From Clostridium sp. CAG:1000 (GTDB lineage Bacteria; Bacillota_I; Bacilli_A; RF39; UBA660): a stretch of DNA of 64,000 nt. The stretch spans positions 3,518-67,517 of the forward strand of contig HG000345.1 of assembly GCA_000436975.1 (NCBI GenBank). The letters run 5' to 3'. Shown piece after piece: positions 18,683-34,810 of the stretch; within the stretch, counting starts at the first letter, position 1; every line of letters starts with the position of its first letter. Under the pieces are notes generated by a model that ran no database searches, was not told where the DNA came from, and saw only the letters and a list, made by a program, of their open reading frames with translations. The position numbers and the translations under genes are program-made.

Positions 18683-18686
<4 letters not shown>
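18252..18686 (-). CDS. ssb: single-stranded DNA-binding protein
   Basis: OB-fold N-terminus MNKVILVGRLTKNPELK and the canonical acidic tail DDDLPF. Confidence 0.95.
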
Positions 18687-20074
<1,388 letters not shown>

Positions 20075-20084
20075 TTTTCTCCTC

Positions 20085-21143: not shown

Positions 21144-21144
21144 T

Positions 21145-21861
21145 TTAAAATATGTCTCCTTCATTTTTTATATTTACTTTTGGTTTCTTTTCTAAATGTT
21201 TTACCGCTTGTTCCAATTGCGTAATTGACATTTTTGTATTATTTTCAACTTTATAGGTTTGATAGATTAATTCTTTATTAGTATTGGTTTCTCTTGCTAA
21301 TCTATCAAGTTTCACTATAAGTTCAGTTTTCTTTTTTAATTCCTCCTCTTTTGTCAATCTTTTTACAGCTTGAGGTTTTTGATTTTCTTCATCACCTGTT
21401 TCAACTTTATATGCTTTTAATAATGCGTATTTGTCTGCGTAAGTTAATGCCTTTCCGGGTGCTTTATCTTGACTATCAATTCCATCCCCATAACTTTTAA
21501 TCTCAATATATTCTTCTGGTTTATCCACATTTACAAATCGATATGTTATTTCAAGCCTTATCACAAAATTCTCGACATCTCCGTATTTAGTGTTAAAGGT
21601 TAGTCTATCCTGACTAATTATTTTTCTTTCGGTTGGATAACTATATATTCCTAATTTATTTTCAATAGGCTTAACAGCATTCAAGATGTCAGCTTCTTTT
21701 GTTGCTTTATATTCTGATTTAGTTCCTTCACCAACTTTTAAGTTCTTTTTTACTTTTTGAATTTCCACTGTTGCAAGTGACATTTTTTGAAAAATGTTTA
21801 ATTTAGAATAATCAACATTTTCAACATTTTTTATTTCATTTATTTGTTTTTGTTCTTCCAT
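21145..21861 (-). CDS. erf: Erf-family single-strand annealing protein
   Basis: Contains the Erf-type motif GKALTYADKYALLKAY. 238 aa. Confidence 0.8.
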   Translation of the reverse strand: MEEQKQINEIKNVENVDYSKLNIFQKMSLATVEIQKVKKNLKVGEGTKSEYKATKEADILNAVKPIENKLGIYSYPTERKIISQDRLTFNTKYGDVENFVIRLEITYRFVNVDKPEEYIEIKSYGDGIDSQDKAPGKALTYADKYALLKAYKVETGDEENQKPQAVKRLTKEEELKKKTELIVKLDRLARETNTNKELIYQTYKVENNTKMSITQLEQAVKHLEKKPKVNIKNEGDIF

Positions 21862-22127
21862 ATTTTTTCATTTTCATCCTTTCTAAAATTCCAAATTGAT
21901 ACATAATTTGTAATATTTCTAATTGTAATTTCATCCCAGCCTAATTTTTCGAGGTCAGTTTCAAAATCATTTAAATTTTTCTTCTTTTTAAATAATCTTT
22001 TGTATAATCCAATTATTCGATTTCTATCGATTTTTCTTTTGATGTACAAACTATCTAAATACATATCGAATAATTTCAATTCTTCTTCACTTGTTTTCAT
22101 TCGACACCTGCTATTACATGTTTCCAA
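21840..22127 (-). CDS. hypothetical protein
   Basis: 95-aa basic ORF. Confidence 0.45.
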   Translation of the reverse strand: METCNSRCRMKTSEEELKLFDMYLDSLYIKRKIDRNRIIGLYKRLFKKKKNLNDFETDLEKLGWDEITIRNITNYVSIWNFRKDENEKIWKNKNK

Positions 22128-22630
22128 TAAAGATTTATTCCTTCTTTTTCTTTTTGAGTTAGAATATTTTTCTGTTTTTCCTCTGCGACTATTCTTTTAA
22201 TAAATTTTGGGTATCTTTCATTTATAGTTTCCAATGTTACAGTTCTTAAATCTTCAAATATTTCTGAAGGATTAAATCCTAACTTGCCGCTCATCTTTTT
22301 GATGTACTTTAGATCTAAATCTCTTTCATAGCACTTATCTGCTTCTTCCATCGATTTAAACTTCTTGCCACAATTTGAACATACATATAGTCCCTGAATG
22401 TTTGCTTCCTCTTTTTGAGTAAATGTTTTGAGCGGATAAATAAGAATGCTCAGTGTAGGTGTTTCCTTATCTCCAGAATTAACATAGTTATCAAACTCTT
22501 CTAAGACTTCGTTAAACTCGTAGTCTTTCAATTTGCTGGACCAATTCTCAATTACATCTTCAGTTATGGAGAAGTAAGGATAGAAACTTTTGATTATTTT
22601 TAATAACTTTTCAACTTGTGCTCTATTCAT
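22097..22630 (-). CDS. G39P-like helicase loader candidate with zinc-ribbon-like CSNCGKKF segment
   Basis: The N-terminal pattern VEKLLKIIKSFYPYFSITEDVIENWSSKLKDYEF resembles SPP1 G39P-type loaders. It follows the DnaD-like gene. Confidence 0.35.
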   Translation of the reverse strand: MNRAQVEKLLKIIKSFYPYFSITEDVIENWSSKLKDYEFNEVLEEFDNYVNSGDKETPTLSILIYPLKTFTQKEEANIQGLYVCSNCGKKFKSMEEADKCYERDLDLKYIKKMSGKLGFNPSEIFEDLRTVTLETINERYPKFIKRIVAEEKQKNILTQKEKEGINLYWKHVIAGVE

Positions 22631-23378
22631 TTTCTTCACCCATCCTTGCTCTTGCTCTTGCAAATACTGCATCTAGTTTTCTTTCACTAGCAGACCTTTT
22701 ACCCTTTTTCAAATCTTCTTCAATTTTTTCTAAAGTATCTAATCCGCAATCTTTCCAAGTACTAAGAATGCCTTTAATGTAACTCAGTTTGTTGTGCCCT
22801 TGCTCAAATGCAATCTTATAGGCTTTTAAAATAATTGGTTCTGAATAAGTTTCTACTAAGTTGCTCACTTCTTCAAATTCATAAGGCGTTAAGCTTCTTC
22901 CATAGTTTTTTTCGACAAAATCTAAAATCGAATTTGGGAATGTTTCTTTCTCTTCCTCTTTCCCTGCAACCCTATCTCTATTACTATCTTCATTAGTATT
23001 ACTTTCTTTAGATATAATATTTTTTTTATTTTTATTAAGAGTATTATTATTAACAACTACAATTACATCTGATGTTGTTATTGTTTCGCTTTCATTTTCG
23101 CTTTTGATTTCGCTTTCCACTTCGGTTTTTTTATTTCTCCTAGGACGACCACCTTTAGAACCATTTACTACCTTACTTTTGTACGAAATTATGGGCTTTG
23201 TGATATTTATCCACACATCTTCTTCGTAAGAATTAGGTTCTAAATTAGGTTTTTTATCTTTAAAATACCAATCGAATAATTTACCTAAAAATTCATCTCT
23301 TTTTTCAACATTTTCAATCCTATCAATTAACCGAAACATTTCTATATAAATTGTAAATTGCTTAGGCTGTTTGTTCAT
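22623..23378 (-). CDS. phage replisome organizer with DnaD/DnaB_2 C-terminal domain
   Basis: C-terminal repeat FVEKNYGRSLTPYEFEEV...ILKAYKIAFEQGHNKLSYIKGILSTWKDCGL. Confidence 0.7.
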   Translation of the reverse strand: MNKQPKQFTIYIEMFRLIDRIENVEKRDEFLGKLFDWYFKDKKPNLEPNSYEEDVWINITKPIISYKSKVVNGSKGGRPRRNKKTEVESEIKSENESETITTSDVIVVVNNNTLNKNKKNIISKESNTNEDSNRDRVAGKEEEKETFPNSILDFVEKNYGRSLTPYEFEEVSNLVETYSEPIILKAYKIAFEQGHNKLSYIKGILSTWKDCGLDTLEKIEEDLKKGKRSASERKLDAVFARARARMGEENE

Positions 23379-23379
23379 A

Positions 23380-23637
23380 TTAACCTCTTAAATGAGCATT
23401 GCAGAAAGATTCACTATTCCCACCATTAATACAGCTCTCAACTGCTCTATCGCTCATAGCAACTAATATTTTTATTATTAAAATAACTATTATTGCTCCT
23501 AATATTAAAAGAGTTATTAATGTATTCTTTTCATCTTTTTCTTCTTTGATTTGCTCATCTTTTAATAATGCTCTTTCTCTATTTCTTCTTAACTCTTCTG
23601 AACTTACTATAAATTCTGGTTCATCTATTTTTTTCAT
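23380..23637 (-). CDS. hypothetical single-pass membrane protein
   Basis: 85 aa with a central hydrophobic helix LITLLILGAIIVILIIKILVA. Confidence 0.5.
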   Translation of the reverse strand: MKKIDEPEFIVSSEELRRNRERALLKDEQIKEEKDEKNTLITLLILGAIIVILIIKILVAMSDRAVESCINGGNSESFCNAHLRG

Positions 23638-23766
23638 GTTTAATTTTTCCTTTCAAATATATTTTTTTTGACATAGATTTAACCCCTGTAATTGATTTAT
23701 TCTTCACTTTTTGATATAATTATCAGTGAAGAACTTTTGCGTATGTTCTTCTTTTTTTATGTACAT

Positions 23767-23958
23767 TTAATCGCTCCTTTCTGGTTCTTTAATTAACATC
23801 TTTTTTTCAAAGTACCATTTAGGAACTTTTGCTTTTATAATTATCGTTCCTGGATATTCTCTTTTAAGTCTTGTATTTAATTCTTTAATTAATTTATAAC
23901 TTGCTGATTTTCCCAACCCAGTTAACTTGATAATCTCTTTTGAATCATAAAATTCCAT
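23767..23958 (-). CDS. small HTH DNA-binding protein (excisionase/AlpA-like)
   Basis: 63 aa with the segment SKEIIKLTGLGKSASYKLIKELN. Confidence 0.5.
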   Translation of the reverse strand: MEFYDSKEIIKLTGLGKSASYKLIKELNTRLKREYPGTIIIKAKVPKWYFEKKMLIKEPERSD

Positions 23959-23984
23959 GTTCTCAACTCCTTTCTTTTTATTTC

Positions 23985-24002
23985 AGCGTGGATATTGATA
24001 TT
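23985..24002. repeat. 18-bp element agcgtggatattgatatt (copy 1 of an inverted pair)
   Basis: Its perfect reverse complement occurs at 26613-26630. Confidence 0.9.
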
Positions 24003-24044
24003 TTTCTTATTCTCCTTTACAATGTTTTTGAAAGGAGGTTTTTA

Positions 24045-24416
24045 ATGTCTGATACTATTTGGGTTGCTATCATAGCTGCTGCATCTGCAATTATTCCTCA
24101 ATCGATAAATGCTTATATAAACTATAAAAAAGATGTCAAACTAAAATCGCAAGATATTTATAACCAAAATCGTTTAGATGCAATAAATGAGTTTCTTGAC
24201 TCTACTGGAAGTATTTATTCAGAAGTTGGAATGTCTTTAAAAGAAAAATATAATTTTCAAAAATCTGCTCAAAAATTGTTATTATATTTTCCAAATATTA
24301 GCACCGAAACTTTTAACGAAATATTTGCATCAACCAAAGAATGGAATCCGCAGAAAAGACTTGATACTTTACAGCCATTAATTAAACAACTATCCAAATC
24401 AATAAAAGAAAAATAA
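24045..24416 (+). CDS. membrane-anchored hypothetical protein (lysogeny-direction moron; superinfection-exclusion candidate)
   Basis: ATG at 24045 follows GAAAGGAGG. It has an N-terminal TM helix IWVAIIAAASAIIPQSI. It has its own TTGATA-17-TACAAT promoter (23996-24024) and is oriented opposite to the surrounding early genes. Confidence 0.6.
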   Translation: MSDTIWVAIIAAASAIIPQSINAYINYKKDVKLKSQDIYNQNRLDAINEFLDSTGSIYSEVGMSLKEKYNFQKSAQKLLLYFPNISTETFNEIFASTKEWNPQKRLDTLQPLIKQLSKSIKEK

Positions 24417-24546
24417 TGTATGCTATGATTAAAGATATTGATAAAATTTTAATAGTTTCTCTATCATTATCTTTTTTTCTTTCATTGAAAATAAATATTA
24501 AGTAATATATCGCAATTAATATACTCACTATAATTTTAAATGTCAT
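24382..24546 (-). CDS. 54-aa two-helix hydrophobic peptide downstream of cro-like gene
   Basis: ATG at 24546 follows GGGGGAATAA. The sequence is MTFKIIVSILIAIYYLIFIFNERKKDNDRETIKILSISLIIAYIIFLLLIWIVV. It overlaps the 3' end of 24045..24416 by 35 nt, convergently. It is below the ORF-track cutoff. Confidence 0.35.
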   Translation of the reverse strand: MTFKIIVSILIAIYYLIFIFNERKKDNDRETIKILSISLIIAYIIFLLLIWIVV

Positions 24547-24559
24547 TTATTCCCCCTTA

Positions 24560-24802
24560 TTATCCTTCTTTTTCTTCACTTTGAGTGAAATAAAGTGGTA
24601 AAAAAAATTCATTAATATTGCATCCAATAACACTAGCAATTTCATTTAATTTATTTATTGAATAATTAAATGGATGATTCTTAATATTTATATAAGTTCT
24701 TTCAGTTATATTAAGTTTGCCAGCAATGTCGCTATCTAACAAGCCATATCTTTTTTGGACTGATTTAATATTTCTTATCACTTGCTCTTCATTTGTTTCC
24801 AT
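24560..24802 (-). CDS. Cro-like XRE-family HTH regulator
   Basis: 80 aa, the first gene of the leftward early operon. HTH segment DSDIAGKLNITERTYINIKN. Confidence 0.75.
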   Translation of the reverse strand: METNEEQVIRNIKSVQKRYGLLDSDIAGKLNITERTYINIKNHPFNYSINKLNEIASVIGCNINEFFLPLYFTQSEEKEG

Positions 24803-24823
24803 TTATACCTCCTAACTAATTCA

Positions 24824-24909
24824 ATTGTAATTCACTCAAAGTGAATTGTCAAGCATTTTTCACAAAAAGTGAAAAAAATATTGTAAATTAGTGAAATTTA
24901 TTGTATAAT
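24824..24909. promoter_or_regulatory. divergent lysis/lysogeny switch: leftward TTGACA-17-TACAAT, rightward TTGTAA-17-TGTATAAT, with TTCAC-N5-GTGAA operators
   Basis: The leftward -35 is the revcomp of 24847-24852 and the -10 the revcomp of 24824-24829. Operator ttcactcaaagtgaa (24831-24845) fills that spacer exactly. A second operator, ttcacaaaaagtgaa, is at 24859-24873. A half-site agtgaa lies at 24890-24895. The rightward -35 is at 24881-24886 and the -10 at 24904-24909. An extra copy, ttcactttgagtgaa, lies at 24575-24589. Confidence 0.6.
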
Positions 24910-24930
24910 TCTGTTGTAAGGAGGGGAAGT

Positions 24931-25287
24931 ATGAAGAATTATTTCGCTAAAAATATTAGTTATCTTATTGATAATAATATAATAAGTGTTGAAACAATTT
25001 TGAAAATTACAAATCACAATAGTCCTGGACTAATATCTATGTGGAAATCTGGTGAGCGAAATATAATGACAAATGACTTAATTGCAATCGCAAATTTTTT
25101 AAATTACACAGTAGATGATTTAATAAATAAAGATTTAAGCAAAAAAGATTCAGAACTATCAAAAAGCGAATTAGATGTTCTATTTGATAAACACAAGGAT
25201 ATATTAACTGATGATGATAAAGAAACTATTAAGTTCATTATAGAAAAAAGGAAACGAGAAATTGATAAGGAGTTGGATGGTGAATAA
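24931..25287 (+). CDS. CI-like XRE-family repressor (ImmR-like)
   Basis: ATG at 24931 follows AGGAGGGGAAGT. HTH-type N-terminus. First gene of the rightward operon that ends with the integrase. Confidence 0.7.
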   Translation: MKNYFAKNISYLIDNNIISVETILKITNHNSPGLISMWKSGERNIMTNDLIAIANFLNYTVDDLINKDLSKKDSELSKSELDVLFDKHKDILTDDDKETIKFIIEKRKREIDKELDGE

Positions 25288-26201
25288 TGGATTGTTTTAG
25301 CAAAAAAGATAAACTAATAACACTGATTCTCTGTATAATGCTCGGTTTTATAGGAATCCATCATTTCTATTGTGGAAATATCAAAAGAGGTTTTTTGTAC
25401 TTATTTACTTTTGGTTTATTCGGTCTTGGATGGTTTGTAGATATAATCATTTTACTCATAATGAATTTAGGAAAACAAAATTCAAAAAAAATGACGACAG
25501 GTTTAAATTCTAATTATGTAACAAAAAATATTTCAGTTACATCAAGTTATACTGTAGCTAATAATCCATATGCCAATGCTGTTCCTTACGAAGCATATTC
25601 AACATCCTATTCAAGTAGAAAAACAAATAAAATTGTTAATGATTATATAGTGTTTGATACCGAAACCACAGGTTTAGAACCTGAAATTGATAAGATTATT
25701 GAATTATCCGCTATAAAATTTATAAATAATAAAGAAGTTGATAGATTTTCAATGCTAGTTAATCCAAATCAAGAAATAGATCCATTTATAACATCATTAA
25801 CTGGTATAAAACAGCTAGATTTAAATTCACAACCAACAATAAACTATGTTCTTCCAAAGTTTTTTGAATTTATTGAAGATTATACTTTAGTAGCGCATAA
25901 TGCTCCATTTGATATAAAAATGCTAGCATGTGAATGTTATAGAAACAATATTAAACTATGTGATAACAAGATAATAGACACTGTTACACTAGCAAAAAGA
26001 ATAATTCCAAGTGATAATGTAGAAAATTACAAATTAGAAACACTAAAAAATTATTTAGGGCTAGATAATATTTCTCACAGAGCTTTAGCAGATTGTGAAG
26101 TATGTTCTAAAATATATAAATTATATTTGTCAAAACAACAAAATAGAAAAATATTAATTATAGATGATAATACTGGAGAAGTATTAGATGAATTAAAATA
26201 A
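25287..26201 (+). CDS. TM2-domain membrane anchor fused to DnaQ-like DEDDh 3'-5' exonuclease
   Basis: The N-terminal TM2-like segment is LILCIMLGFIGIHHFYCGNIKRGFLYLFTFGLFGLGWFVDIIILL. Exo motifs are FDTETTG, HNAPFD and HRALADCE. Its ATG shares one nucleotide with the repressor stop (TAATG). Confidence 0.8.
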   Translation: MDCFSKKDKLITLILCIMLGFIGIHHFYCGNIKRGFLYLFTFGLFGLGWFVDIIILLIMNLGKQNSKKMTTGLNSNYVTKNISVTSSYTVANNPYANAVPYEAYSTSYSSRKTNKIVNDYIVFDTETTGLEPEIDKIIELSAIKFINNKEVDRFSMLVNPNQEIDPFITSLTGIKQLDLNSQPTINYVLPKFFEFIEDYTLVAHNAPFDIKMLACECYRNNIKLCDNKIIDTVTLAKRIIPSDNVENYKLETLKNYLGLDNISHRALADCEVCSKIYKLYLSKQQNRKILIIDDNTGEVLDELK

Positions 26202-26257
26202 TAAGTATGCTAGTATAGGTACTTAATATAAATATAAAGAATAAAGAGGTATTAAGT

Positions 26258-26566
26258 ATGGTCATAGAATTATTAAAAGGAAACATGACTCAACAAGAGT
26301 TATTAAATTATTACAATGCTAACATCACTTATGTTAGTTTGAGTAAAGGTATAAATGGATTCGTTTTCAATCATAGAGGTATATACAATATAATTATTAA
26401 TTCTAACCTATCCTATTATAAAAAAAGAAAGTCAATATTGCATGAACTTGCTCATATTGAACTTTCACATTTGGACCAAGATAAAACAATGTTAGAATTT
26501 AATAGAAATGGTTATGAAGATGAAGCAGATAGATATATTAAATACATTAAAGATAATTTAAAATAA
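26258..26566 (+). CDS. ImmA/IrrE-like zinc metallopeptidase (short form)
   Basis: Contains HELAH in SILHELAHIELSH. It lies in an operon with an XRE repressor and the integrase. Confidence 0.55.
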   Translation: MVIELLKGNMTQQELLNYYNANITYVSLSKGINGFVFNHRGIYNIIINSNLSYYKKRKSILHELAHIELSHLDQDKTMLEFNRNGYEDEADRYIKYIKDNLK

Positions 26567-26612
26567 AAAATAGCACCTGCGGCAACAGGTACTACAAATT
26601 AGAAAAACTTTG

Positions 26613-26630
26613 AATATCAATATCCACGCT
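26613..26630. repeat. 18-bp element aatatcaatatccacgct (copy 2, inverted)
   Basis: Perfect reverse complement of 23985-24002. It lies ~80 nt upstream of the integrase start. Confidence 0.9.
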
Positions 26631-26712
26631 AATAGAATTGAGTTTTTTAAATGTTTTTCTATACACGATTATACTAAATTAAAAAATTAAAATCAAGAAA
26701 GGAGAATGAAAA

Positions 26713-27834
26713 ATGAATAAAATATATGAAAAAACAAGATATGCAAACATATACAGACATAGTAAAAATGGAAACTATGTAATAAGGCATGATAGCACTA
26801 CTATATCTAAAATAAATAGTCAAAAAATATATGACATTAAAGTTGCTAAAGATTATAAAGCAAAACTGGAATTAAATATTAAAAAAATAGAACAATCAAA
26901 TAATTCTTATCTTTTCAAAGATTTATGGAATGAATATATATATCACTGTAAGGAAATATCAAAACTGTCTTATAATACATTAAAAAAGAAAAATGTAATA
27001 TATAATTGTTATTTAAAAGATTTAGAAAATTTTAGAATTGACAAAATGGTTAAAGAAAATATCATTGATTTTATGAATCAAGTTATTGCTTCTGATAAAA
27101 CAAAAAACGAAATATTAAAATTATTAAAAGCATTTATTAATTGGTGTTATGAAGAAAAAGATCTGATTAACAAAAAGCCAACTTTAGGAATTAAAAGTTT
27201 TAAAGTCGCAAAAGTAGAAATGAAATATTGGACTATTGAAGAATTTAAAAGATTTATGAAATATATGGCAAATCAAAAAGGCGACTTAGCATATCGCATA
27301 AGAATATTAGTATTAATTGAATTGCATTTAGGTGATAGAATTGGTGAAACAAGAGCATTAACATGGAGCTCTATAAATGAAGAACATTCTACAATTAAAA
27401 TATCTCATTCAATTAATTATGATAGTAAATCTAATGACTTCTTATCCAACACAAAGAATTATGGTTCAGATAGAATCGTTGATGTTAGTAATTTGTTAAT
27501 AGAGGAATTATTTAAATACAAGCGATATCTTATAGAGCAGCAAATTAATATTAACGATATAATATTTTATAATTATAACACAAATAAGCCATACTCAGAT
27601 TCAAGTTTAAGAAAACAATTTTATCGTTTCTCAAAAGAGGCAGGAGTTTCAAAAATAAGATTATATGATTTAAGACATACATATGTCGCATTAATGATGA
27701 GCGAGGGTTGGGAATTATATCATATTTCAAGAAGAATCGGTCACACCAATTATTCCACAACAGTAAACAAGTATGGTCATTTAGAAAATAATATTAGAAA
27801 GGAGATAGCAAAAACTACCGATAAATATTTTTAA
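26713..27834 (+). CDS. int: tyrosine recombinase / phage integrase
   Basis: C-terminal catalytic pattern GDRIGETRAL...RLYDLRHTY...GHTNYSTTVNKYGHL (R..HxxR..Y). Confidence 0.9.
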   Translation: MNKIYEKTRYANIYRHSKNGNYVIRHDSTTISKINSQKIYDIKVAKDYKAKLELNIKKIEQSNNSYLFKDLWNEYIYHCKEISKLSYNTLKKKNVIYNCYLKDLENFRIDKMVKENIIDFMNQVIASDKTKNEILKLLKAFINWCYEEKDLINKKPTLGIKSFKVAKVEMKYWTIEEFKRFMKYMANQKGDLAYRIRILVLIELHLGDRIGETRALTWSSINEEHSTIKISHSINYDSKSNDFLSNTKNYGSDRIVDVSNLLIEELFKYKRYLIEQQININDIIFYNYNTNKPYSDSSLRKQFYRFSKEAGVSKIRLYDLRHTYVALMMSEGWELYHISRRIGHTNYSTTVNKYGHLENNIRKEIAKTTDKYF

Positions 27835-27956
27835 TGGAAATTTCAGTGGTAAAAAAATAATAAATTAAGTAATAATAAGGGCAAAATGAGAAATGATGTT
27901 ACCCATCACCTGCTCCATTTGTAAAAATCGTCGGAACAACCGATGTTGAGATAAAG

Positions 27957-27983
27957 CTTAATTAGAAATAATTAAGTTTTTTT
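27957..27983 (+). terminator. intrinsic terminator
   Basis: Stem CTTAATT/AATTAAG (27957-27963 / 27970-27976) followed by TTTTTTT. Confidence 0.55.
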
Positions 27984-28007
27984 GTGTCTAAGAAAGGTTG
28001 TGATGAT

Positions 28008-28289
28008 ATGTTAAATATTATTAAAGAAAAACTTGATTTAAGCCCTGATTTAAAGAAAAAGATTGATTGGGCTAAGAATTATACTTCTACTTCAATAACT
28101 CTTGAGAAAGGTCATTTAATTAGATTAGAACCTAGTAATCTTGCTTATGTAGATCCACATAAAGTTAAAATCAATAATTATACTTTCTTGTTCTTCAATG
28201 GTGTTAATACTTTCTATGTTAATAACCTAAATGACGGGCATAATCTATCAGAACTAGAAAAATTCTTTAAACTAGCTAAATGCTCTTAA
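28008..28289 (+). CDS. hypothetical protein
   Basis: 93-aa ORF (start trimmed to MLNIIKEK). No recognisable motif. Confidence 0.45.
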   Translation: MLNIIKEKLDLSPDLKKKIDWAKNYTSTSITLEKGHLIRLEPSNLAYVDPHKVKINNYTFLFFNGVNTFYVNNLNDGHNLSELEKFFKLAKCS

Positions 28290-28310
28290 TACTATTCCCT
28301 CAATAAGGAA

Positions 28311-28338
28311 TTGACAAATATTTAAAAAGTGATATTAT
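28311..28338 (+). promoter_or_regulatory. sigma-A-type promoter TTGACA-16-TGaTATTAT
   Basis: TTGACA at 28311-28316 and an extended -10 at 28330-28338. Confidence 0.5.
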
Positions 28339-28382
28339 AAATAACCAATGAAAGAGGTAACTCTAGAAATGGAGGTACATCT

Positions 28383-28460
28383 ATGAAAATAAAACACAAT
28401 ATATCGAAATTTTATAATATTGAATTTAATGAGGAGTCAGTAGTATTTAGACTTTACTAG
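28383..28460 (+). CDS. 25-aa leader peptide MKIKHNISKFYNIEFNEESVVFRLY
   Basis: GGAGG lies 8 nt upstream of the ATG. The last ten codons cover the 5' arm and loop of the downstream terminator. Confidence 0.35.
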   Translation: MKIKHNISKFYNIEFNEESVVFRLY

Positions 28461-28482
28461 ATACTATTGTCTCCTCTTTTTT
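28431..28482 (+). terminator. strong intrinsic terminator/attenuator immediately upstream of the serine recombinase RBS
   Basis: 16-bp stem gaggagtcagtagtat / atactattgtctcctc (one mismatch, one G-U) followed by TTTTTT. Confidence 0.7.
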
Positions 28483-28487
28483 AGTAA

Positions 28488-30338
<1,851 letters not shown>

Positions 30339-30353
30339 TCCTTAGACCACGAA

Positions 30354-30380
30354 ATCTTGTATGGAGAATCCGTACAAGAT
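30354..30380 (+). promoter_or_regulatory. candidate oriT (RS_A-like inverted repeat)
   Basis: atcttgtatgg-agaat-ccgtacaagat (11-bp arms, one G-T) lies 70 nt upstream of mob. A second imperfect inverted repeat, atatcttgg...ccagatat, is at 30394-30416. Confidence 0.45.
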
Positions 30381-30452
30381 ATCTAGGGGGTTATATATCT
30401 TGGATGTCCCAGATATGGTCCAAAATAACCCACACTAAAAAGGAGGAATTAT

Positions 30453-31865
30453 ATGGCTGAATTACCTTATTCATTTCATCTTGGAAGTAATAAAAATAGA
30501 AAAGCATCAGCAAGAAGTAATGCTAGAAATAATGTAAGTGGTTCTTCTTCTCTAGCTAATAATGGAATACAAAATTATCAACAATTATCAAAAGTAAATA
30601 ATCATGATTTTAGAAAATACGAAAATGATAATGATTATATTTATCAATTAAAAGGAACTAATGATATTGTTTATGATGTTAAAGAATTCTATAAAACTGA
30701 ATTTGAAGAAGCAAGAATCGAATACAACAATAAGCAATCTAGACCTAGTAGAAGAATTGATGATTATTTTGAATATGTTAATAAAGATGAGAAAAGAGAT
30801 CTTGCTTGTGAGATTATAATTGAACTTGGAAATAAAGAATATTGGGATTCAAAAGATTTTGAATTTAAAAGAGAAATGGTTAGTGTATATGAAGAACATT
30901 TACACGATTTAGAAAGACTTGTTCCAGAATTTAAAATAACAAATGCTGTTGTTCATTTAGATGAAACTTCTCCTCACATGCATATAGTTGGAGTTCCAGT
31001 TAAAGATGGTTGTAAAACAGGTTTATCAAAACAAGTAAATAAATCATCAGTTTTTACTAAAGAAAGACTTGAAAATATACAAAATGTAATGAGAGAAAAA
31101 TGTATTGATACTTTTAATAAATACTTTGAAAAAGAAAATGCTACTCTTAAGACTAAAGAAAAAGGAAGAAATAAAGATATTCACGTTAAAGATATGGTTA
31201 ATTATCAAGAATTAAAAAAAGAACTTGAAATTAATAAAAGAAGTATTGATAAAAACAATGATAAGATAAAATCGATAAACAACTCTTCAAAAGAGTTGAG
31301 AGATTTATTATCAGGTTTAGAAGAATCGAGACTTGGTGGTTATAAACTTAATAATAAACAAAAAGAAAGATTACAAGATTTAATTAAAGATGTTGAATCC
31401 ATAACTAATTATTTTGATAATTATAAAAATATAATTAATAATATATCTTCAATTAATGATAATTTAAAATATCAAAAAGATAGAAATAATAAAGTTGAAA
31501 ATGACAATAATAAACTTATTAAAGAAAATCAAAAACTTAAAATAAAAAATACCGAATTAAAAGAAGATAGAGATTTTGTTCATGCAGTTATGGATAAGAG
31601 AATGGATGAAAGAAAAGACTTTATAACTTATCTATGTAAAAATGCTAACAGCAAAGATCCAACTACCTCTAGATTTTTTAGACAAGTTGTTAATGATATG
31701 AATAGCAAAAACTTAATAACTGATAAAGAACATAGAGTTATATTAAATCCACCTAGAACCATTAATAAATCAGAAATAAATAAAGCACTTAGTTCTATTA
31801 ATAGAAAAATGGATGAAGCTGCTGAAGAATTTTATCAAACAAAAAAGGACGATTATTATTTATAA
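30453..31865 (+). CDS. mob: MobV-family (Mob/Pre) relaxase
   Basis: Contains the signature HLDETSPHMH and an N-terminal NNHDFRKYEN (HxxR-type) motif. The C-terminal half is a long coiled coil. Confidence 0.85.
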   Translation: MAELPYSFHLGSNKNRKASARSNARNNVSGSSSLANNGIQNYQQLSKVNNHDFRKYENDNDYIYQLKGTNDIVYDVKEFYKTEFEEARIEYNNKQSRPSRRIDDYFEYVNKDEKRDLACEIIIELGNKEYWDSKDFEFKREMVSVYEEHLHDLERLVPEFKITNAVVHLDETSPHMHIVGVPVKDGCKTGLSKQVNKSSVFTKERLENIQNVMREKCIDTFNKYFEKENATLKTKEKGRNKDIHVKDMVNYQELKKELEINKRSIDKNNDKIKSINNSSKELRDLLSGLEESRLGGYKLNNKQKERLQDLIKDVESITNYFDNYKNIINNISSINDNLKYQKDRNNKVENDNNKLIKENQKLKIKNTELKEDRDFVHAVMDKRMDERKDFITYLCKNANSKDPTTSRFFRQVVNDMNSKNLITDKEHRVILNPPRTINKSEINKALSSINRKMDEAAEEFYQTKKDDYYL

Positions 31866-31871
31866 TCAGTC

Positions 31872-32984
31872 CTATTTTTTTGTTTCTATAGCTATTAATG
31901 GAACAAGTATTTCATCATCTGTATAACCTGCATGCTGTGATTTCAATTCTTCACTACCAATATATAATAAAGTTTTATTTGTTTTTCCAATAGCTAAATA
32001 ATCACCTAAAGTATCTCTAAATATTTCATTTTCTTCTCCATCACCAAATAGTTTTGAATTAATTACATCTTCCATAGAATACAAATCAAAATCATTACTA
32101 AAATATTTATTAAATAATGATTCAAAGATTTCTTTCTTATCTGGTTTAATAAAAAAGTTAACTGCTCTTGGTTCTAATGAAGTGTTTCTTAATAAACACT
32201 CTTCAATATCTGGATAATCTTTTATAAATAGATTCTCAACATTATGATGTCCATGATCTGCTACAACAAATACTATTGTATCTGATAGTTTATTACTTAG
32301 TTCTTCAATTCTTCTATTTATATCTTTTATTATGTTTTTTATTTCTGGTTTATCACAACCAATTTCGTGCATTGTATGATCTGGATCAGTATCATAAGCA
32401 TAAATATACTTTTTTCCATCTTCATTACATAACTTTTCTATTCTTTCATACATTTCATCTAAATTAGAATAAGCTTTTTCTCCAAATGGAAATAAACTAT
32501 ATCCTTTATACAAACCTTTTTCATTTATTTCTTTACTAATTGTTTTTCTTATCATATGTTTATTATTATATTCAATAGCTTCATCTAAAGGTTTATATTC
32601 AAAATCTCCTTTTTCAGAGTTCATAAATACAGTTATAGTCTTATCTATGTCTTTATAATACATATCCCAACCTAACATTCCTGTCTCAACTGGATTTAAT
32701 CCTGTCATCATTGATGTAGTTGCAGCAACTGTTGTTGCTGGAAAAACAGTTGTTATTGGTTTGATTCTATTTTTTATTAAAAATGTATCTTTATCAAGCA
32801 TTCTATCCATTATGTTAGAACCCATACCATCACATAAAATAGTTACAACATTTTTTGGTTTATATTCTTCTAATATTCTATCAATATAATCTAAAGTTTT
32901 ATGTTTATAATCTAAATCAAAATACTTTCTAATTGAACACGCTAAATTAGTTAAACATTCATTGTAATTATTTTTTACTTCCAT
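31872..32984 (-). CDS. alkaline-phosphatase-superfamily phosphodiesterase/nucleotide pyrophosphatase-like protein
   Basis: Motifs CDGMG, FPATTVAATTSMMTG and VVADHGH. Confidence 0.6.
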   Translation of the reverse strand: MEVKNNYNECLTNLACSIRKYFDLDYKHKTLDYIDRILEEYKPKNVVTILCDGMGSNIMDRMLDKDTFLIKNRIKPITTVFPATTVAATTSMMTGLNPVETGMLGWDMYYKDIDKTITVFMNSEKGDFEYKPLDEAIEYNNKHMIRKTISKEINEKGLYKGYSLFPFGEKAYSNLDEMYERIEKLCNEDGKKYIYAYDTDPDHTMHEIGCDKPEIKNIIKDINRRIEELSNKLSDTIVFVVADHGHHNVENLFIKDYPDIEECLLRNTSLEPRAVNFFIKPDKKEIFESLFNKYFSNDFDLYSMEDVINSKLFGDGEENEIFRDTLGDYLAIGKTNKTLLYIGSEELKSQHAGYTDDEILVPLIAIETKK

Positions 32985-32999: not shown

Positions 33000-34238
33000 T
33001 TATTGTAATTCAACTTTTAAAAATACTTTCTTACCTTTTTGAACAATTAATTCTCCATTGTTAAAATCATCTTTAGTTATTATTCTATCAATATTACTTT
33101 CTTTTTCTTGATTAATACTAATACCATTTTGTTCCATTAATCTTCTTGCTTCTGATTTTGAAGATACTATTTTAATATCAACTAATAAATCTAAAACATT
33201 AATATCTAATTTATTAGAATCAAACTTAACTGATGGCATATTTTCAGATATACCTTTATTACTAAATAATTCTTCAGCAGTTTGTCTAGCTTTAATTGCT
33301 TCTTCTTCACCATGTACTAGCTTAGTTACTTCAAATGCTAATAATTTTTTAGCTTCTCTAATATCTTTCTTACATAATTCTTTTATATCAGATATTTCCA
33401 TTCTAGTAAAGAATGATAAACTTCTTTCAACATCTTCATCAAATGAATTAATCCATGCTTGAAAGAAATCAAATGGTGTAGTTTTGTCTCTTGATACCCA
33501 TAATGTACCAGTAGCTGTTTTACCCATTTTTTCTCCATCTGCTTTAATTAATAATGGACAAGTAAATCCAAATAATGGATCTATCTTTTTACCCTCACTA
33601 AATCCTATTTTTCTAGATAAATCAGCACCAGCTAAAATATTTCCCCATTGATCTGAACCACCAATTTGTAATCTACATCCAAATTCTTTATTTAAATGTA
33701 CAAAGTCAAATGCTTGCATTAACATATATCCCATCTCTAAAAATGTTAATCCACCATTTTCTAATCTCTTTTTGTAACAATCTGCAGCAAGCATATTATT
33801 AACATTGAAGTGAACTCCAATATCTCTCATAAAATCAACATAAGTTTGATCCATAATCCAATCAGCATTATCAACTATAATTGCTGGATTATCTCCATCA
33901 GTTCTTACAAATCTTTTTACTAATTCTTTAACTTCTGCTTTATTATGAGCAACTTCTTCTTTTGATAGCATTTTTCTCATATCACTTTTACCAGTTGGAT
34001 CTCCAATTAAAGCAGTAGCTCCACCAATTAGTATAATTCCATGATGACCAAAATCTTGTAGCCATCTAAACATAGTTAATGCAAAGAAGTGTCCTATGTG
34101 TAATGAATCTGCAGTAGGGTCAATTCCTAAGTAGAATGTCATAGGTTCTCCATTAACTAAATCAATAATTTCTTGTTCATGTGTAAGGTCTTTAACATAA
34201 CCTCTTTCTTTTAAAATATCAAATAATTTCTTTTCCAT
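33000..34238 (-). CDS. tyrS: tyrosine--tRNA ligase
   Basis: HIGH motif (SLHIGHF), KMSKS variant (KMGKT) and a C-terminal S4-like domain. Confidence 0.95.
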   Translation of the reverse strand: MEKKLFDILKERGYVKDLTHEQEIIDLVNGEPMTFYLGIDPTADSLHIGHFFALTMFRWLQDFGHHGIILIGGATALIGDPTGKSDMRKMLSKEEVAHNKAEVKELVKRFVRTDGDNPAIIVDNADWIMDQTYVDFMRDIGVHFNVNNMLAADCYKKRLENGGLTFLEMGYMLMQAFDFVHLNKEFGCRLQIGGSDQWGNILAGADLSRKIGFSEGKKIDPLFGFTCPLLIKADGEKMGKTATGTLWVSRDKTTPFDFFQAWINSFDEDVERSLSFFTRMEISDIKELCKKDIREAKKLLAFEVTKLVHGEEEAIKARQTAEELFSNKGISENMPSVKFDSNKLDINVLDLLVDIKIVSSKSEARRLMEQNGISINQEKESNIDRIITKDDFNNGELIVQKGKKVFLKVELQ

Positions 34239-34317
34239 TTCTATTTCCTCCTAAATAATTTGTACAGTTAATTAAATTACAATCATCAAAGTAATAATAG
34301 TAATAGTCACTATCCAT
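34219..34317 (-). CDS. 32-codon upstream ORF MDSDYYYYYFDDCNLINCTNYLGGNRNGKEII (five consecutive Tyr codons)
   Basis: GGAGGTGA lies 8 nt before the ATG at 34317. The codons TAT TAC TAT TAT TAC are at 34305-34291. The stop TGA (34221-34219) lies 20 nt inside tyrS. Confidence 0.4.
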   Translation of the reverse strand: MDSDYYYYYFDDCNLINCTNYLGGNRNGKEII

Positions 34318-34337
34318 ACAAATCACCTCCTCGAAAA

Positions 34338-34545
34338 TAAAAAGAGCAATCCATCCATAAAGGACGAATTGCTCGTGGTACCACCTTTGTTTGTAATAAT
34401 AGTTTATTACCTCTTATTGATAACGGATACTATCCGACTTAAAATCATCATTTGTAATTCATTATTTTAATTTTGTTTGTTTCCACCAACCACAAACTCT
34501 CTATAAATAATAATAAAATAATTACTTCGAATGAATCGCTTTTTA
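34338..34545 (-). promoter_or_regulatory. T-box riboswitch leader, Tyr specifier (UAC)
   Basis: The minus strand shows AGCGATTCATTCGAAGTA (stem I base) and an AGAGAG box. GAATTACAAA holds TAC at 34456-34454. The T-box core is AAAGGTGGTACCACGAGC. The terminator GAGCAATTC...GGATTGCTC is followed by TTTTT. Confidence 0.85.
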
Positions 34546-34558
34546 ATTAACTGCATTG

Positions 34559-34587
34559 ATTATAACATACTTTATGTTTTTTTGCAA
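34559..34587 (-). promoter_or_regulatory. promoter of the tyrS leader: TTGCAA-17-TATAAT
   Basis: -35 at 34582-34587 and -10 as the revcomp of 34559-34564. Confidence 0.6.
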
Positions 34588-34639
34588 ATATTGACACTAT
34601 AGTAGTATTGTAATAAACTCTAAAATATGATATATTTAA

Positions 34640-34776
34640 TATGTAATTGAGTTTTATCTCGTTACATTTGTAGTAAAATGTTTCTCAAACGAGATACACA
34701 ATTGCTCCATAAGATAAAATCGTCGCACCAATGCGGCGTTAATGATTAAGTCAACTAGTAATAGTTGATTTTTTTT
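34640..34776 (+). ncRNA. candidate small RNA or orphan leader with its own terminator
   Basis: A TTGACA at 34591-34596 lies upstream. A nested long hairpin spans 34655-34663/34688-34696, with inner stem 34664-34669/34676-34681. A GC hairpin is at 34721-34726/34733-34738. The terminator TCAACTA/TAGTTGA (34751-34757/34762-34768) is followed by T8. Confidence 0.3.
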
Positions 34777-34810
34777 GTGCGTTATTGCGAAGAAGGGTGT
34801 TAATGATATT

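What the first reader, a model, noticed from the sequence alone, without database searches (positions are those of the whole stretch)
34219..34340. Tyr-run upstream ORF (DYYYYYF) between a Tyr-specific T-box terminator and the tyrS start codon
After the T-box terminator, the first Shine-Dalgarno (GGAGGTGA) serves a 32-codon ORF rather than tyrS. Codons 5-9 of that ORF are TAT TAC TAT TAT TAC, with a sixth Tyr later.

The uORF runs across the tyrS RBS and start and stops 20 nt inside tyrS. Ribosome progress through the Tyr codons could therefore set tyrS translation by occlusion, coupling or re-initiation.

This would add a leader-peptide-type sensor of charged tRNA-Tyr on top of a riboswitch that senses uncharged tRNA-Tyr. 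AT-rich sequence makes Tyr codons common. Even so, five in a row, in frame, behind a strong RBS, upstream of the Tyr-tRNA ligase, is a striking combination.
Basis: partly seen in the sequence, partly recalled or inferred. Interest (0 to 1): 0.7.

Follow-up and report, generated by a model that had tools for sequence, protein, structure and literature searches.

The report
Tyrosine-codon leader ORF after tyrS T-box
Between a tyrosine-specific T-box riboswitch and the tyrosyl-tRNA synthetase gene lies a short reading frame with five tyrosine codons in a row; it is conserved across a whole clade of uncultured gut bacteria and folds into a hairpin with the gene's ribosome-binding region, so it probably adds a ribosome-based check on tyrosyl-tRNA supply to the riboswitch.

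Summary
A canonical Tyr T-box (specifier UAC, terminator plus U-tract) is followed by GGAGGTGA, then a 32-codon ORF, MDSDYYYYYF.... This ORF crosses the tyrS SD and ATG and stops 20 nt inside tyrS.

It is not chance. YYYYY occurs once in all six frames of the window, against about 0.07 expected. The ORF is open in 34 of 34 related genome loci, and 49 public protein clusters carry the peptide.

- The whole uORF sits in a conserved long hairpin. The terminator U-tract pairs with the tyrS SD-ATG spacer, and the SD1/ATG1 segment pairs with the 15 nt just 5' of SD2.
- The stop position is not conserved: -6, +19/20, +28, +46 or +56. In a sister clade the same MDS[D/E]YYY start is fused in frame to TyrS.
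- TyrS in the uORF clade is depleted in Tyr: 5 of 412 residues, against 11-16 in relatives.

Best reading: a translated Tyr-codon leader ORF acting by erm-like translational attenuation, stacked on the T-box. Translation and stalling are inferred, not shown, and the direction of regulation is uncertain. I found no description of a T-box stacked with a cognate-codon leader ORF. I rate it a new variant of known kinds.

The parts
34559..34588 (-). Promoter-like site (TTTGCA/TTGCAA, 17-18 nt spacer, TG-TATAAT) just upstream of the T-box
   Evidence: This is a consensus match only (10 of 12 positions, with an extended -10 TG).
34357..34548 (-). T-box leader. The Tyr specifier UAC is at 34456..34454 and the T-box sequence is AAAGGUGGUACCACG.
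   Evidence: RF00230, 99.3 bits against a gathering score of 93, E = 1.2e-20. The specifier was read from the sequence.
34333..34374 (-). T-box intrinsic terminator: a 13-bp stem at 34374..34344, then the U-tract. The U-tract plus the following C (34343..34333) is also the 5' arm of the lower helix of the downstream hairpin.
   Evidence: terminator scan; fold; the A:U pair shifts position in both arms together in 13-14 sequences.
34323..34330 (-). SD1, GGAGGTGA. It is invariant in all relatives and is a 9-nt match to the anti-SD when read as GGAGGUGAU. It is partly exposed in a 4x4 internal loop opposite SD2.
   Evidence: The anti-SD complementarity comes from general knowledge of the 16S 3' end; no 16S gene is in the window.
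34219..34317 (-). Leader ORF (uORF): 32 codons plus TGA, MDSDYYYYYFDDCNLINCTNYLGGNRNGKEII, in the +1 frame relative to tyrS
   Evidence: It is open in 34 of 34 main-clade loci. The peptide is found in 49 public protein clusters, and the exact sequence is P0029, 'unknown [Clostridium sp. CAG:1000]'.
34291..34305 (-). Tyr run, codons 5-9 (TAT TAC TAT TAT TAC)
   Evidence: Nearly all relatives keep 3-6 consecutive Tyr (two short-clade members read YDY or YNY), even where the predicted pairing partner differs or no hairpin exists.
34314..34328 (-). Middle helix, 5' arm (AGGUGAUUUGUAUGG: the 3' part of SD1, the spacer and ATG1)
   Evidence: A G:C pair becomes A:U in L023 and L030.
34253..34267 (-). 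Middle helix, 3' arm (CUGUACAAAUUAUUU), immediately 5' of the tyrS SD. It encodes the conserved LIN[Y/C]TN stretch of the peptide.
34246..34251 (-). SD2 (GGAGGA) of tyrS, mostly in the internal loop of the hairpin
34238..34248 (-). Lower helix, 3' arm (GGAAAUAGAAA: the end of SD2, the spacer and the A of the tyrS ATG), paired with the terminator U-tract
33000..34238 (-). tyrS, tyrosine-tRNA ligase, 412 aa, with only 5 Tyr residues
   Evidence: PF00579 and PF22421; Tyr counts.

Best explanation
This is a leader-peptide sensor acting at the level of translation, placed downstream of a normal transcriptional Tyr T-box.

Proposed sequence of events:
1. Uncharged tRNA-Tyr lets RNA polymerase read through the T-box terminator.
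2. The first ribosome-binding site on the readthrough RNA is the very strong SD1. It drives a short ORF whose codons 5-9 are all Tyr.
3. In the free RNA, the region from the terminator U-tract to the tyrS ATG folds into one long hairpin of about -31 kcal/mol. The SD1/ATG1 segment pairs with the 15 nt just upstream of SD2. The U-tract pairs with the tyrS SD-ATG spacer and the first base of the start codon. Both initiation regions are therefore held in helices.
4. A ribosome that loads on the uORF, most easily during transcription before the 3' arm exists, melts the hairpin.
5. If charged tRNA-Tyr is scarce, the ribosome pauses on the Tyr run. It then sits on the 5' arm and keeps the tyrS initiation region single-stranded, so new ribosomes can start on tyrS. 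It may also shield the 5' end of the mRNA from decay.
6. If Tyr-tRNA is plentiful, the ribosome runs through and terminates, and the hairpin re-closes.

The result would be a steeper, two-input response: uncharged tRNA is read by the RNA and charged tRNA is read by the ribosome. TyrS itself has been purged of Tyr codons, so it can still be made under these conditions.

Shown here: the sequence anatomy; conservation of SD1, ATG1, the frame and the Tyr run; conservation of the hairpin; restriction to tyrS; Tyr depletion of TyrS.

Inferred: that the uORF is translated, that ribosomes stall on it, and that stalling raises rather than lowers tyrS translation.
For: Anatomy.

Not chance: the only YYYYY in six frames, about 0.07 expected.

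Conservation:
- The ORF is open, with invariant AGGAGGTG and ATGGAT, in 34 of 34 loci whose TyrS is 75-94% identical.
- 49 peptide clusters all keep MDS[D/E]YYYY(Y)F...LINYTN.
- The same leader is kept in front of a tyrS whose catalytic domain has been swapped for one only about 33% identical.

Coding signature:
- Codon 4 is GAC, GAT, GAA or GAG (18, 6, 4, 1), so it is always acidic.
- Synonymous changes occur at codons 2, 3, 4, 6, 7, 10, 12, 15 and 20.
- Every indel before codon 21 is a multiple of 3, whereas indels of 1-4 nt are common after it.
- None of 59 observed variants creates a stop.

The Tyr run is kept independently of its pairing partner:
- The inner hairpin differs in L026, L029, L030, L033 and L125, yet YYYY stays.
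- The sister clade has no hairpin (z about 0) but most members keep MDS[D/E]YYY; two read YDY or YNY.

Hairpin:
- The same architecture appears in all 34 main-clade loci, plus L119 and L124-L127 (-17.6 to -33 kcal/mol, z from -2 to -6).
- 96.5% of cells are paired, against 41-57% when partners are slid, and 3 pairs covary.

Specific to tyrS: metS-like and glyQS-like T-box leaders on main-clade contigs run straight from terminator to SD-ATG.

TyrS is Tyr-poor: 5 of 412 residues, against about 18 expected from 4.5% usage and 11-16 in T-box-bearing relatives without the uORF.

The mechanism class has precedents: erm leaders (PMC5118997, PMC8274638) and ribosome roadblocks that stabilise mRNA in Bacillus (PMC3997798).
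Against: - There are no expression data of any kind. The organism is uncultured.
- Third codon positions of the uORF are as conserved as positions 1 and 2 (0.90, against 0.94 and 0.91). tyrS synonymous sites are only 0.68 identical. RNA-level selection is therefore certain, and coding selection is shown only by the finer signatures.
- The stop-avoidance test is weak once transitions and the four divergent sequences are accounted for (P between 0.014 and 0.16).
- Covariation rests on few independent events.
- SD2 sits in an internal loop rather than being paired.
- A simple thermodynamic model with a ribosome parked on codons 4/5 still predicts the U-tract:spacer helix, so it does not show opening of the tyrS initiation region.
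- In the sister clade the Tyr run is in frame with TyrS, and in one lineage the internal ATG is ATA. There, stalling would slow TyrS synthesis rather than help it.
- Codon 9 flips between Tyr and Cys in many lineages.
Confidence: 0.5

Rival explanations
1. The uORF is translated, but not to sense tyrosine. Ribosomes recruited by the very strong SD1 simply melt the hairpin, giving translational coupling, and/or act as a 5' roadblock that stabilises the tyrS mRNA after the T-box leader is processed. On this view the Tyr codons are a by-product of an AU-rich stem built from UAU/UAC repeats.
For: - The uORF always runs through SD2, and its end is always near or beyond the tyrS ATG. This includes a stop 6 nt before it (L008) and an ATGA overlap (L130).
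- SD1 is an unusually long anti-SD match and is rare in the window.
- Strong SDs and stalled ribosomes stabilise downstream mRNA in Bacillus, and T-box leaders such as thrS are cleaved upstream of the terminator (PMC3997798).
- In the window the Tyr run pairs with GAUGAUUGUAAU.
- The two TAC codons are conserved although TAC makes up only 11% of Tyr codons in the window's genes.
Against: - The Tyr run persists where its pairing partner has changed and where there is no hairpin at all.
- Other AU-rich codons (AAA, AAU, AUU, UUU) would build a stem equally well, yet the cognate amino acid of the downstream synthetase is the one repeated.
- Two other T-box leaders from the same clade lack any such ORF.
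- TyrS is Tyr-depleted.
Confidence: 0.2
2. The Tyr run is a negative gate or an N-terminal tag. The ancestral state is a TyrS with an MDS[D/E]YYY N-terminal extension. Stalling at the Tyr run lowers TyrS output when no Tyr-tRNA is available, or the tag has a role in the protein. The uORF in the window clade would then be a frameshifted descendant that works through coupling, so stalling reduces tyrS translation.
For: - In the sister clade at least 14 TyrS clusters carry the extension in frame, at 16-18 codons.
- L128 lacks the internal ATG.
- The NJ tree places the two clades as sisters.
- Stops at -6 or +20 are compatible with termination followed by re-initiation.
Against: - In the main clade the frame relative to tyrS is 0, 1 or 2 and the stop can lie as far as +46 or +56, which is too far for efficient re-initiation.
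- A negative gate contradicts the logic of the T-box immediately upstream and the Tyr depletion of TyrS.
- The in-frame clusters were found through gene calls, which favours in-frame cases. Only 3 of 3 unbiased DNA hits are in frame.
Confidence: 0.12
3. This is an RNA-only element. The conserved hairpin (a translational repressor, an RNase III or RNase J/Y target, or a stabiliser) is the functional unit, and the ORF is an accident of its sequence and is never translated.
For: - All three codon positions are equally conserved, at about 0.9.
- The hairpin is conserved with some covariation.
- RNase-mediated control layered on a T-box is known for the S. aureus met leader (PMC7913692, title and abstract only).
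Against: - An invariant SD of 8-11 nt at optimal spacing from an invariant ATG is not needed for a hairpin. An anti-SD would be the expected partner of SD2.
- SD1-ATG-MDS[D/E]YYY is conserved in the sister clade, which has no hairpin.
- Codon 4 shows the GAN signature.
- Indels preserve the frame.
- In the decayed copy lacking tyrS (L123), SD1 is mutated along with the T-box.
Confidence: 0.1
4. The 32-aa product is a functional small protein, for example a signalling or modified peptide, that merely shares the tyrS transcript.
For: The N-terminal 20 residues are conserved in 49 clusters.
Against: - The C-terminal third changes completely with the frame relative to tyrS.
- No maturation or export genes lie nearby. 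The neighbours are a histidine phosphatase family protein and a phosphodiesterase.
- The conserved residues coincide with the helix arms.
- In the sister clade the sequence is fused to TyrS.
Confidence: 0.03

Closest known systems
Classical leader-peptide attenuators (trpL, hisL, pheL; pheM of E. coli pheST; the predicted His leader peptide upstream of hisS paralogues in Bacilli, PMC2965389)
   Same: A short ORF with its own SD and a run of codons for the amino acid handled by the downstream gene. pheST and the hisS paralogues show that synthetase genes can be controlled in this way.
   Different: No terminator/antiterminator pair follows or overlaps the uORF. The only terminator is the T-box's own, upstream of SD1, so the output cannot be classical transcription attenuation. 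I know of no Tyr-codon leader peptide in the literature (own knowledge; searches found none). [quoted passage not shown] In PMC2965389 the leader peptide replaces a T-box rather than following one.
erm / cat / cmlA-type translational attenuation (PMC5118997, PMC8274638)
   Same: A leader ORF whose RNA is base-paired with the initiation region of the downstream gene. A ribosome stalled early in the leader is proposed to keep that region open. Stalling may also stabilise the mRNA (PMC3997798).
   Different: The stall signal here would be shortage of a specific aminoacyl-tRNA, not an antibiotic bound in the exit tunnel. The structure is one long two-armed hairpin rather than a four-segment switch. 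SD2 lies in an internal loop, and it is the spacer and start codon that are paired.
T-box riboswitch, transcriptional type (RF00230; B. subtilis tyrS)
   Same: The upstream element is a canonical member: stem I with a UAC specifier, the T-box sequence, and a terminator with a U-tract.
   Different: The uORF and hairpin lie outside the family model. Related tyrS T-boxes and other T-boxes of the same clade run directly into the SD-ATG.
Salmonella mgtA leader: Mg2+ riboswitch plus proline-codon uORF mgtL (PMC6460261)
   Same: One mRNA leader combines an RNA sensor with a short ORF whose codon run reports translation or aminoacyl-tRNA status.
   Different: There the two sensors read unrelated signals, and the uORF lies inside the riboswitch expression platform and affects transcription elongation. 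Here both would read the same tRNA species, uncharged and then charged. They act in series, first on transcription and then on translation.
Translational T-boxes of Actinobacteria (ileS; PMC1262725, PMC11297988)
   Same: Control of a synthetase by RNA pairing around the ribosome-binding site.
   Different: There the T-box itself sequesters the SD and no ORF is involved. Here the T-box has a terminator, and the sequestering helix is a separate element containing a uORF.

Membership tests
T-box leader (RF00230), Tyr-specific, transcriptional | Match to the covariance model above the curated threshold | tested here: met
   99.3 bits against a gathering score of 93, full-length model 1-219.
T-box leader (RF00230), Tyr-specific, transcriptional | Specifier codon for Tyr in the stem I specifier loop, and a UGGN bulge matching the tRNA NCCA end | tested here: met
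   Read from the sequence. GAA-U-UAC-A has UAC at 34456..34454, and GGUGGUACC gives UGGU, which fits discriminator A73 of tRNA-Tyr (A73 from general knowledge).
T-box leader (RF00230), Tyr-specific, transcriptional | Intrinsic terminator competing with the antiterminator | tested here: met
   13-bp stem at 34374..34344 followed by TTTTTATTTT. It is the only terminator-like site in 34100..34800.
Classical leader-peptide transcription attenuator | Short ORF with its own SD upstream of the regulated gene | tested here: met
Classical leader-peptide transcription attenuator | Run of regulatory codons cognate to the regulated gene | tested here: met
   Five consecutive Tyr codons before tyrS, and 3-6 in relatives.
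Classical leader-peptide transcription attenuator | Terminator and alternative antiterminator downstream of, or overlapping, the leader ORF | tested here: not met
   One search finds no terminator between the uORF and tyrS. The hairpin's 3' arm is followed by AUGGAAAAG, not a U-tract. The element is therefore not filed as a member.
erm-type translational attenuator | Leader ORF whose RNA pairs with the initiation region of the downstream gene | tested here: met
   The SD1/ATG1 arm pairs with the 15 nt before SD2, and the U-tract pairs with the SD2-ATG2 spacer and the first base of the ATG. Caveat: the core of SD2 lies in an internal loop.
erm-type translational attenuator | A stalled ribosome in the leader frees the downstream initiation region | tested here: inconclusive
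   Masking 29 nt around codons 4/5 lowers the fold from -31 to -8 kcal/mol, but the U-tract:spacer helix is still predicted. Steric effects of a ribosome cannot be modelled with these tools.
erm-type translational attenuator | Induction depends on stalling within the leader peptide | not testable with these tools
   This needs toeprinting, reporter assays or ribosome profiling.
Protein-coding small ORF (translated) | Substitution and indel pattern typical of coding sequence | tested here: inconclusive
   For: the GAN pattern at codon 4, frame-preserving indels, and no stop among 59 variants. Against: no excess variation at third positions, and the corrected stop-avoidance P is 0.014-0.16.

The most novel reading that the evidence does not exclude
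This is a two-tier, single-ligand control of a tRNA synthetase. The same tRNA species is read twice on one mRNA. First the T-box reads it as uncharged tRNA, which allows transcription readthrough. Then ribosomes on a cognate-codon leader ORF read it as charged tRNA, and their pausing opens a hairpin over the tyrS start. Together these form an AND-gate or amplifier. The enzyme has co-evolved to be nearly free of its own amino acid. The sister clade, where the same Tyr-run start is fused in frame to TyrS, would capture the evolutionary step from an N-terminal extension to a regulatory uORF.
Probability: 0.4. Interest if true: 0.8.

Novelty: new variant of a known kind. Interest (0 to 1): 0.68.

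Why it matters
T-boxes are the textbook way that Firmicutes control tRNA synthetases, and leader peptides are the textbook way in Proteobacteria. The two are normally treated as alternatives that replace each other. Here they appear in series on one transcript for the same amino acid, in a widespread group of uncultured gut Bacilli (records labelled Clostridium sp. CAG:1000 and Firmicutes bacterium CAG:582).

If the model holds, three things follow:
- A riboswitch decision can be 'proof-read' by the ribosome.
- It would be, to my knowledge, the first tyrosine-codon leader peptide.
- It offers a compact element of about 110 nt whose parts can be tested directly with reporters: SD1, the Tyr run, two helices and SD2.

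The element is also a natural series of evolutionary intermediates: an in-frame extension, an overlapping uORF in all three frames, decayed copies, and a swapped catalytic domain behind an unchanged leader.

Tried and rejected
- **Chance Tyr run in AT-rich DNA.** Rejected.
- **Programmed frameshift from the uORF into tyrS** (SD-like GGAGG followed by A-rich slippery sequence). Rejected, because the frame relation is 0, 1 or 2 in different relatives.
- **A general habit of T-box leaders in this clade.** Rejected. metS-like (L020) and glyQS-like (L120) T-boxes have no uORF. The window itself holds no other T-box or synthetase gene.
- **Code 4 read-through of the TGA stop.** Rejected for this genome. 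Some public gene calls do read through it, giving peptides ending ...IIWYFKRKRLC.
- **tRNA-anticodon mimic for TyrS autoregulation.** No GUA is exposed in a loop in the folds. Not pursued further.
- **Metagenome pattern scan for the 5-nt-spacer variant.** 35 of 38 hits were unrelated genes (for example MDADYFKK...). Only L089, L108 and L115 were relevant.
- **Protein search with the sister-clade N-terminus alone.** No candidates.
- **Parked-ribosome thermodynamic model.** Inconclusive.
- **Stop-avoidance statistic.** Suggestive only.
- **Rfam at a permissive threshold.** No further RNA family in the leader.
- **Literature searches for a T-box combined with a uORF or leader peptide, or for Tyr-codon leader peptides.** No description found.
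Full report
**1. What is in the window**

The feature lies on the minus strand. Reading 5' to 3' on that strand:
- A promoter-like site at 34588..34559.
- A T-box leader at 34548..34357. It matches RF00230 at 99.3 bits against a gathering score of 93. The specifier loop reads GAA-U-UAC-A, with the Tyr codon UAC at 34456..34454, and the T-box sequence is AAAGGUGGUACCACG.
- An intrinsic terminator: a 13-bp stem at 34374..34344 followed by TTTTTATTTT. It is the only terminator-like site in 34100..34800.
- GGAGGTGA at 34330..34323.
- After 5 nt, ATG at 34317. It opens a 32-codon ORF, MDSDYYYYYFDDCNLINCTNYLGGNRNGKEII (one search lists the GTG-extended 35-aa version).

Codons 5-9 are TAT TAC TAT TAT TAC. 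The ORF passes the tyrS SD (GGAGGA, 34251..34246) and the tyrS ATG (34238) in the +1 frame, and it ends at TGA 34221..34219, 20 nt into tyrS. tyrS (33000..34238) carries PF00579 and PF22421.

**2. Is it more than chance?**

The window is 26.7% G+C, and Tyr codons make up 5.8% of all trinucleotide positions. Even so, the run at 34305 is the only run of 5 or more Tyr in all six frames. The expectation is 0.08 from codon frequency and 0.065 from Markov-1 simulations per 64 kb. GGAGGTGA occurs only twice in the window. TGA is a genuine stop in this genome: 27 long ORFs contain no in-frame TGA, and 5 of them end in TGA.

**3. Conservation in relatives**

A scan of one genome per species with TyrS returned 80 loci.
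- In all 34 loci whose TyrS is 75-94% identical to the window's, the leader has the same layout: T-box, terminator, invariant AGGAGGTG, ATGGAT, and an open frame MDSDYYYY[Y/C]F[D/G/N][D/E/N]CNLI.... All are uncultured gut 'Bacilli', 'Tenericutes' or 'Firmicutes bacterium CAG:582'-type MAGs.
- A search of public protein predictions found 49 clusters of the peptide, none with a functional name. One is the exact window sequence, labelled 'unknown [Clostridium sp. CAG:1000]'.
- More distant tyrS loci (58-68% identity) have a T-box that runs straight into the SD-ATG, or have no T-box at all.

**4.

The RNA from the terminator U-tract to the tyrS ATG folds into one long hairpin. For the 112-nt segment the energy is -31 kcal/mol with z = -5.5. 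Its parts are:
- A lower helix: the 11-nt U-tract (34343..34333) pairs with the tyrS SD-ATG spacer and the A of the ATG (34248..34238).
- A 4x4 internal loop (GAGG / AGGA) in which the two SDs face each other.
- A middle helix: AGGUGAUUUGUAUGG, which is the end of SD1, the spacer and ATG1 (34328..34314), pairs with CUGUACAAAUUAUUU (34267..34253).
- An apical part in which, in the window, the Tyr run pairs with GAUGAUUGUAAU.

The lower and middle helices are predicted in every one of the 34 loci and in five further loci (L119, L124-L127). On the alignment, 96.5% of cells are paired, against 41-57% when the partners are slid. The single A in the U-tract and its U partner move together in 13-14 sequences. 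One G:C pair becomes A:U in L023 and L030. Covariation is real but rests on few events, because the sequences are so similar.

**5. RNA constraint and coding constraint**

The first 20 codons of the uORF are 92% identical between pairs. This is higher than the T-box (87%) and far higher than tyrS synonymous third positions (68%). The three codon positions are about equally conserved, at 0.94, 0.91 and 0.90. Selection on the RNA itself is therefore certain, and a simple dN/dS argument is not available.

Coding is supported by finer signals:
- SD1, its spacing and ATG1 are invariant. A hairpin whose only job was to mask SD2 would be expected to use an anti-SD instead.
- Codon 4 is GAC, GAT, GAA or GAG (18, 6, 4 and 1 distinct sequences). 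It is always acidic, with all four bases at the third position.
- Synonymous changes occur at codons 2, 3, 4, 6, 7, 10, 12, 15 and 20.
- Every indel before codon 21 is a multiple of three, whereas indels of 1-4 nt are common between codon 21 and the tyrS ATG. Some of the in-frame indels lie in the TAT repeat, where slippage by three is expected anyway.
- None of 59 observed variants creates a stop. This gives P of about 0.002 under a naive model, but only 0.014-0.16 after allowing for transitions and removing the four most divergent sequences.

**6. The Tyr run does not depend on its pairing partner**

In L026, L029, L030, L033 and L125 the apical structure is different, yet four to six consecutive Tyr codons remain. 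The strongest case is the sister clade described next.

**7. The sister clade**

An NJ tree of TyrS places a second group next to the main clade: L037, L042 and the metagenome loci L089, L108 and L115. These have the same AGGAGGTG-N5-ATGGATAGTGATTAT... start, but only 16-18 codons follow before the tyrS ATG. There is no significant structure (z about 0), and the frame is the tyrS frame.

A protein search found at least 14 TyrS clusters beginning MDS[D/E]YYY-(9-11 aa)-MNCFETLK. Three further lineages show variants:
- In L128 the internal ATG is ATA.
- In L130 the upstream ORF is degenerate (MNSDDYRNK...). SD1 is weakened, and the stop overlaps the tyrS ATG as ATGA.
- L039, L040 and L129 have lost it altogether.

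The module 'strong SD, then MDS[D/E]YYY' is therefore older than the hairpin, and its relationship to the tyrS start has changed during evolution.

**8. What is not conserved**

In the main clade the distance between the two ATGs is 73-88 nt, and all three frame relations occur. The stop lies at -6 (L008), +19 or +20 (most loci), +28, +46 or +56. The only constant is that a ribosome on the uORF must traverse the 3' arm and SD2. This argues against termination followed by re-initiation, or occlusion by the terminating ribosome, as the essential mechanism. It also excludes a programmed frameshift.

**9. Natural experiments**

- In L119-L122 the catalytic part of TyrS is a different subtype, about 33% identical, while the last roughly 75 residues are about 75% identical. 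The T-box, uORF and hairpin upstream are unchanged.
- In L123 tyrS is gone and an IS256-like transposase fragment follows the leader. Both the T-box sequence and SD1 carry mutations.
- On main-clade contigs, two other T-box leaders go directly from the terminator to the SD-ATG: one before a metS-like gene in L020 and one before a glyQS-like gene in L120.

The element is therefore tied to TyrRS function. It is not tied to a particular coding sequence or to T-boxes in general.

**10. TyrS is poor in tyrosine**

The window's TyrS has 5 Tyr in 412 residues, while 27 genes of the window use Tyr at 4.5%, which predicts about 18. Main-clade TyrS proteins have 5-8 Tyr (median 5), the sister clade has 8-12, and T-box-bearing relatives without the uORF have 11-16. 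The 32-codon uORF thus holds more Tyr codons (6) than the whole enzyme (5). This is a single phylogenetic correlation. It is nevertheless what one expects if the enzyme must be made when Tyr-tRNA is scarce and the uORF is meant to be hard to translate at that time.

**11. Most likely mechanism**

I commit to the following model, with about 0.5 confidence in the core and less in its direction. The uORF is translated. Its Tyr run makes ribosome transit depend on charged tRNA-Tyr. A ribosome paused with codon 5 or 6 in the A site covers the ATG1 arm of the middle helix, so the tyrS initiation region cannot be locked into the hairpin. The paused ribosome may also protect the 5' part of the mRNA. 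When Tyr-tRNA is ample, the ribosome runs through and the hairpin re-forms.

This works like erm-type translational attenuation (PMC5118997, PMC8274638), but keyed to an aminoacyl-tRNA as in classical leader peptides, and it sits behind a T-box. Ribosome roadblocks and strong SDs stabilise mRNAs in Bacillus, and the thrS and thrZ T-box leaders are processed upstream of their terminators (PMC3997798), so an effect on stability is plausible as well.

Weak points:
- SD2 is in a loop rather than paired.
- A simple energy model with 29 nt masked lowers the fold from -31 to -8 kcal/mol but still predicts the U-tract:spacer helix.
- In the sister clade a stall would slow, not help, synthesis of TyrS started at ATG1.

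**12. Rivals**

- A translated uORF that opens the hairpin or stabilises the mRNA without sensing Tyr (0.2).
- A negative gate, or a relic of an N-terminal extension (0.12).
- An RNA-only hairpin (0.1).
- A functional small peptide (0.03).

The evidence for and against each is given in the corresponding fields.

**13. Comparison with what is known**

- The T-box is an ordinary member of its family.
- The uORF fails one defining feature of classical attenuators, because no terminator lies downstream of it. I therefore do not file it there.
- It shares the architecture of erm-type attenuators, but stall dependence cannot be tested here.
- PMC1262725 states that synthetase genes in Firmicutes use T-boxes 'and none' classical attenuation.
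- PMC2965389 predicted His leader peptides in Bacilli that replace T-boxes.
- The Salmonella mgtA leader combines a riboswitch with a proline-codon uORF, but for unrelated signals (PMC6460261).
- My literature searches found no T-box followed by a cognate-codon leader ORF and no Tyr-codon leader peptide. Absence from the held library does not prove absence from the literature.

**14. Verdict**

The feature is real, conserved and specific to tyrS. I rate it a new variant of known kinds, with interest 0.68.

Noticed in passing
window 33000..34238 (-); loci L001-L080: TyrS of the uORF-bearing clade is strongly depleted in its own amino acid: 5-8 Tyr per roughly 412 aa, median 5. T-box-bearing relatives without the uORF have 11-16. 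A separate T-box-less clade (L054-L079) has only 3-4.
   Followed up: partly
L119:3080-4264 (also L120-L122): A hybrid tyrS. The catalytic domain is only about 33% identical to the window's TyrS (a different TyrRS subtype, with a KFGADP motif), while the C-terminal roughly 75 residues are about 75% identical. The leader and the upstream His_Phos_1 neighbour are unchanged, which suggests a recombinational domain swap.
   Followed up: partly
L123:1000-1500: A decayed copy of the leader. The T-box sequence is GGTGGTACTATGAG and SD1 is mutated to GGGAATG. It has no tyrS and is followed by an IS256-like transposase fragment (...MYTTNTIESLNRQFRKYTK).
   Followed up: no
window about 5400..31900: A prophage-like or integrative element. 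It holds a phage minor capsid protein (7570..9354), a phage-type integrase (26713..27834), a large serine recombinase (28494..30338) and a Mob_Pre relaxase (30453..31865). It ends about 1 kb downstream of tyrS.
   Followed up: no
window 13576..13666 (-): A tRNA-like Rfam match (42.7 bits) with a 34-nt insertion in place of the anticodon-arm region, inside the phage-like region. ARAGORN does not call it and finds only tRNA-Asn at 51822..51897.
   Followed up: partly
P0008, P0010, P0011, P0013, P0025 and similar clusters (public peptide clusters): Several public gene calls read through the uORF's TGA as Trp (...GKEIIWYFKRKRLC). The contigs were apparently annotated with genetic code 4. The window's own genes show that TGA is a stop.
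   Followed up: partly
L020:4010-4200; L120:3070-3250: Other T-box leaders on contigs of the same clade, before a metS-like gene and a glyQS-like gene. They lie close to tyrS and lack any leader ORF.
   Followed up: partly
L130:480-610: A sister-clade variant in which the upstream ORF has lost its Tyr run (MNSDDYRNKSNVKGDTV). SD1 is weakened, and the stop overlaps the tyrS start as ATGA, a classic translational-coupling junction.
   Followed up: no
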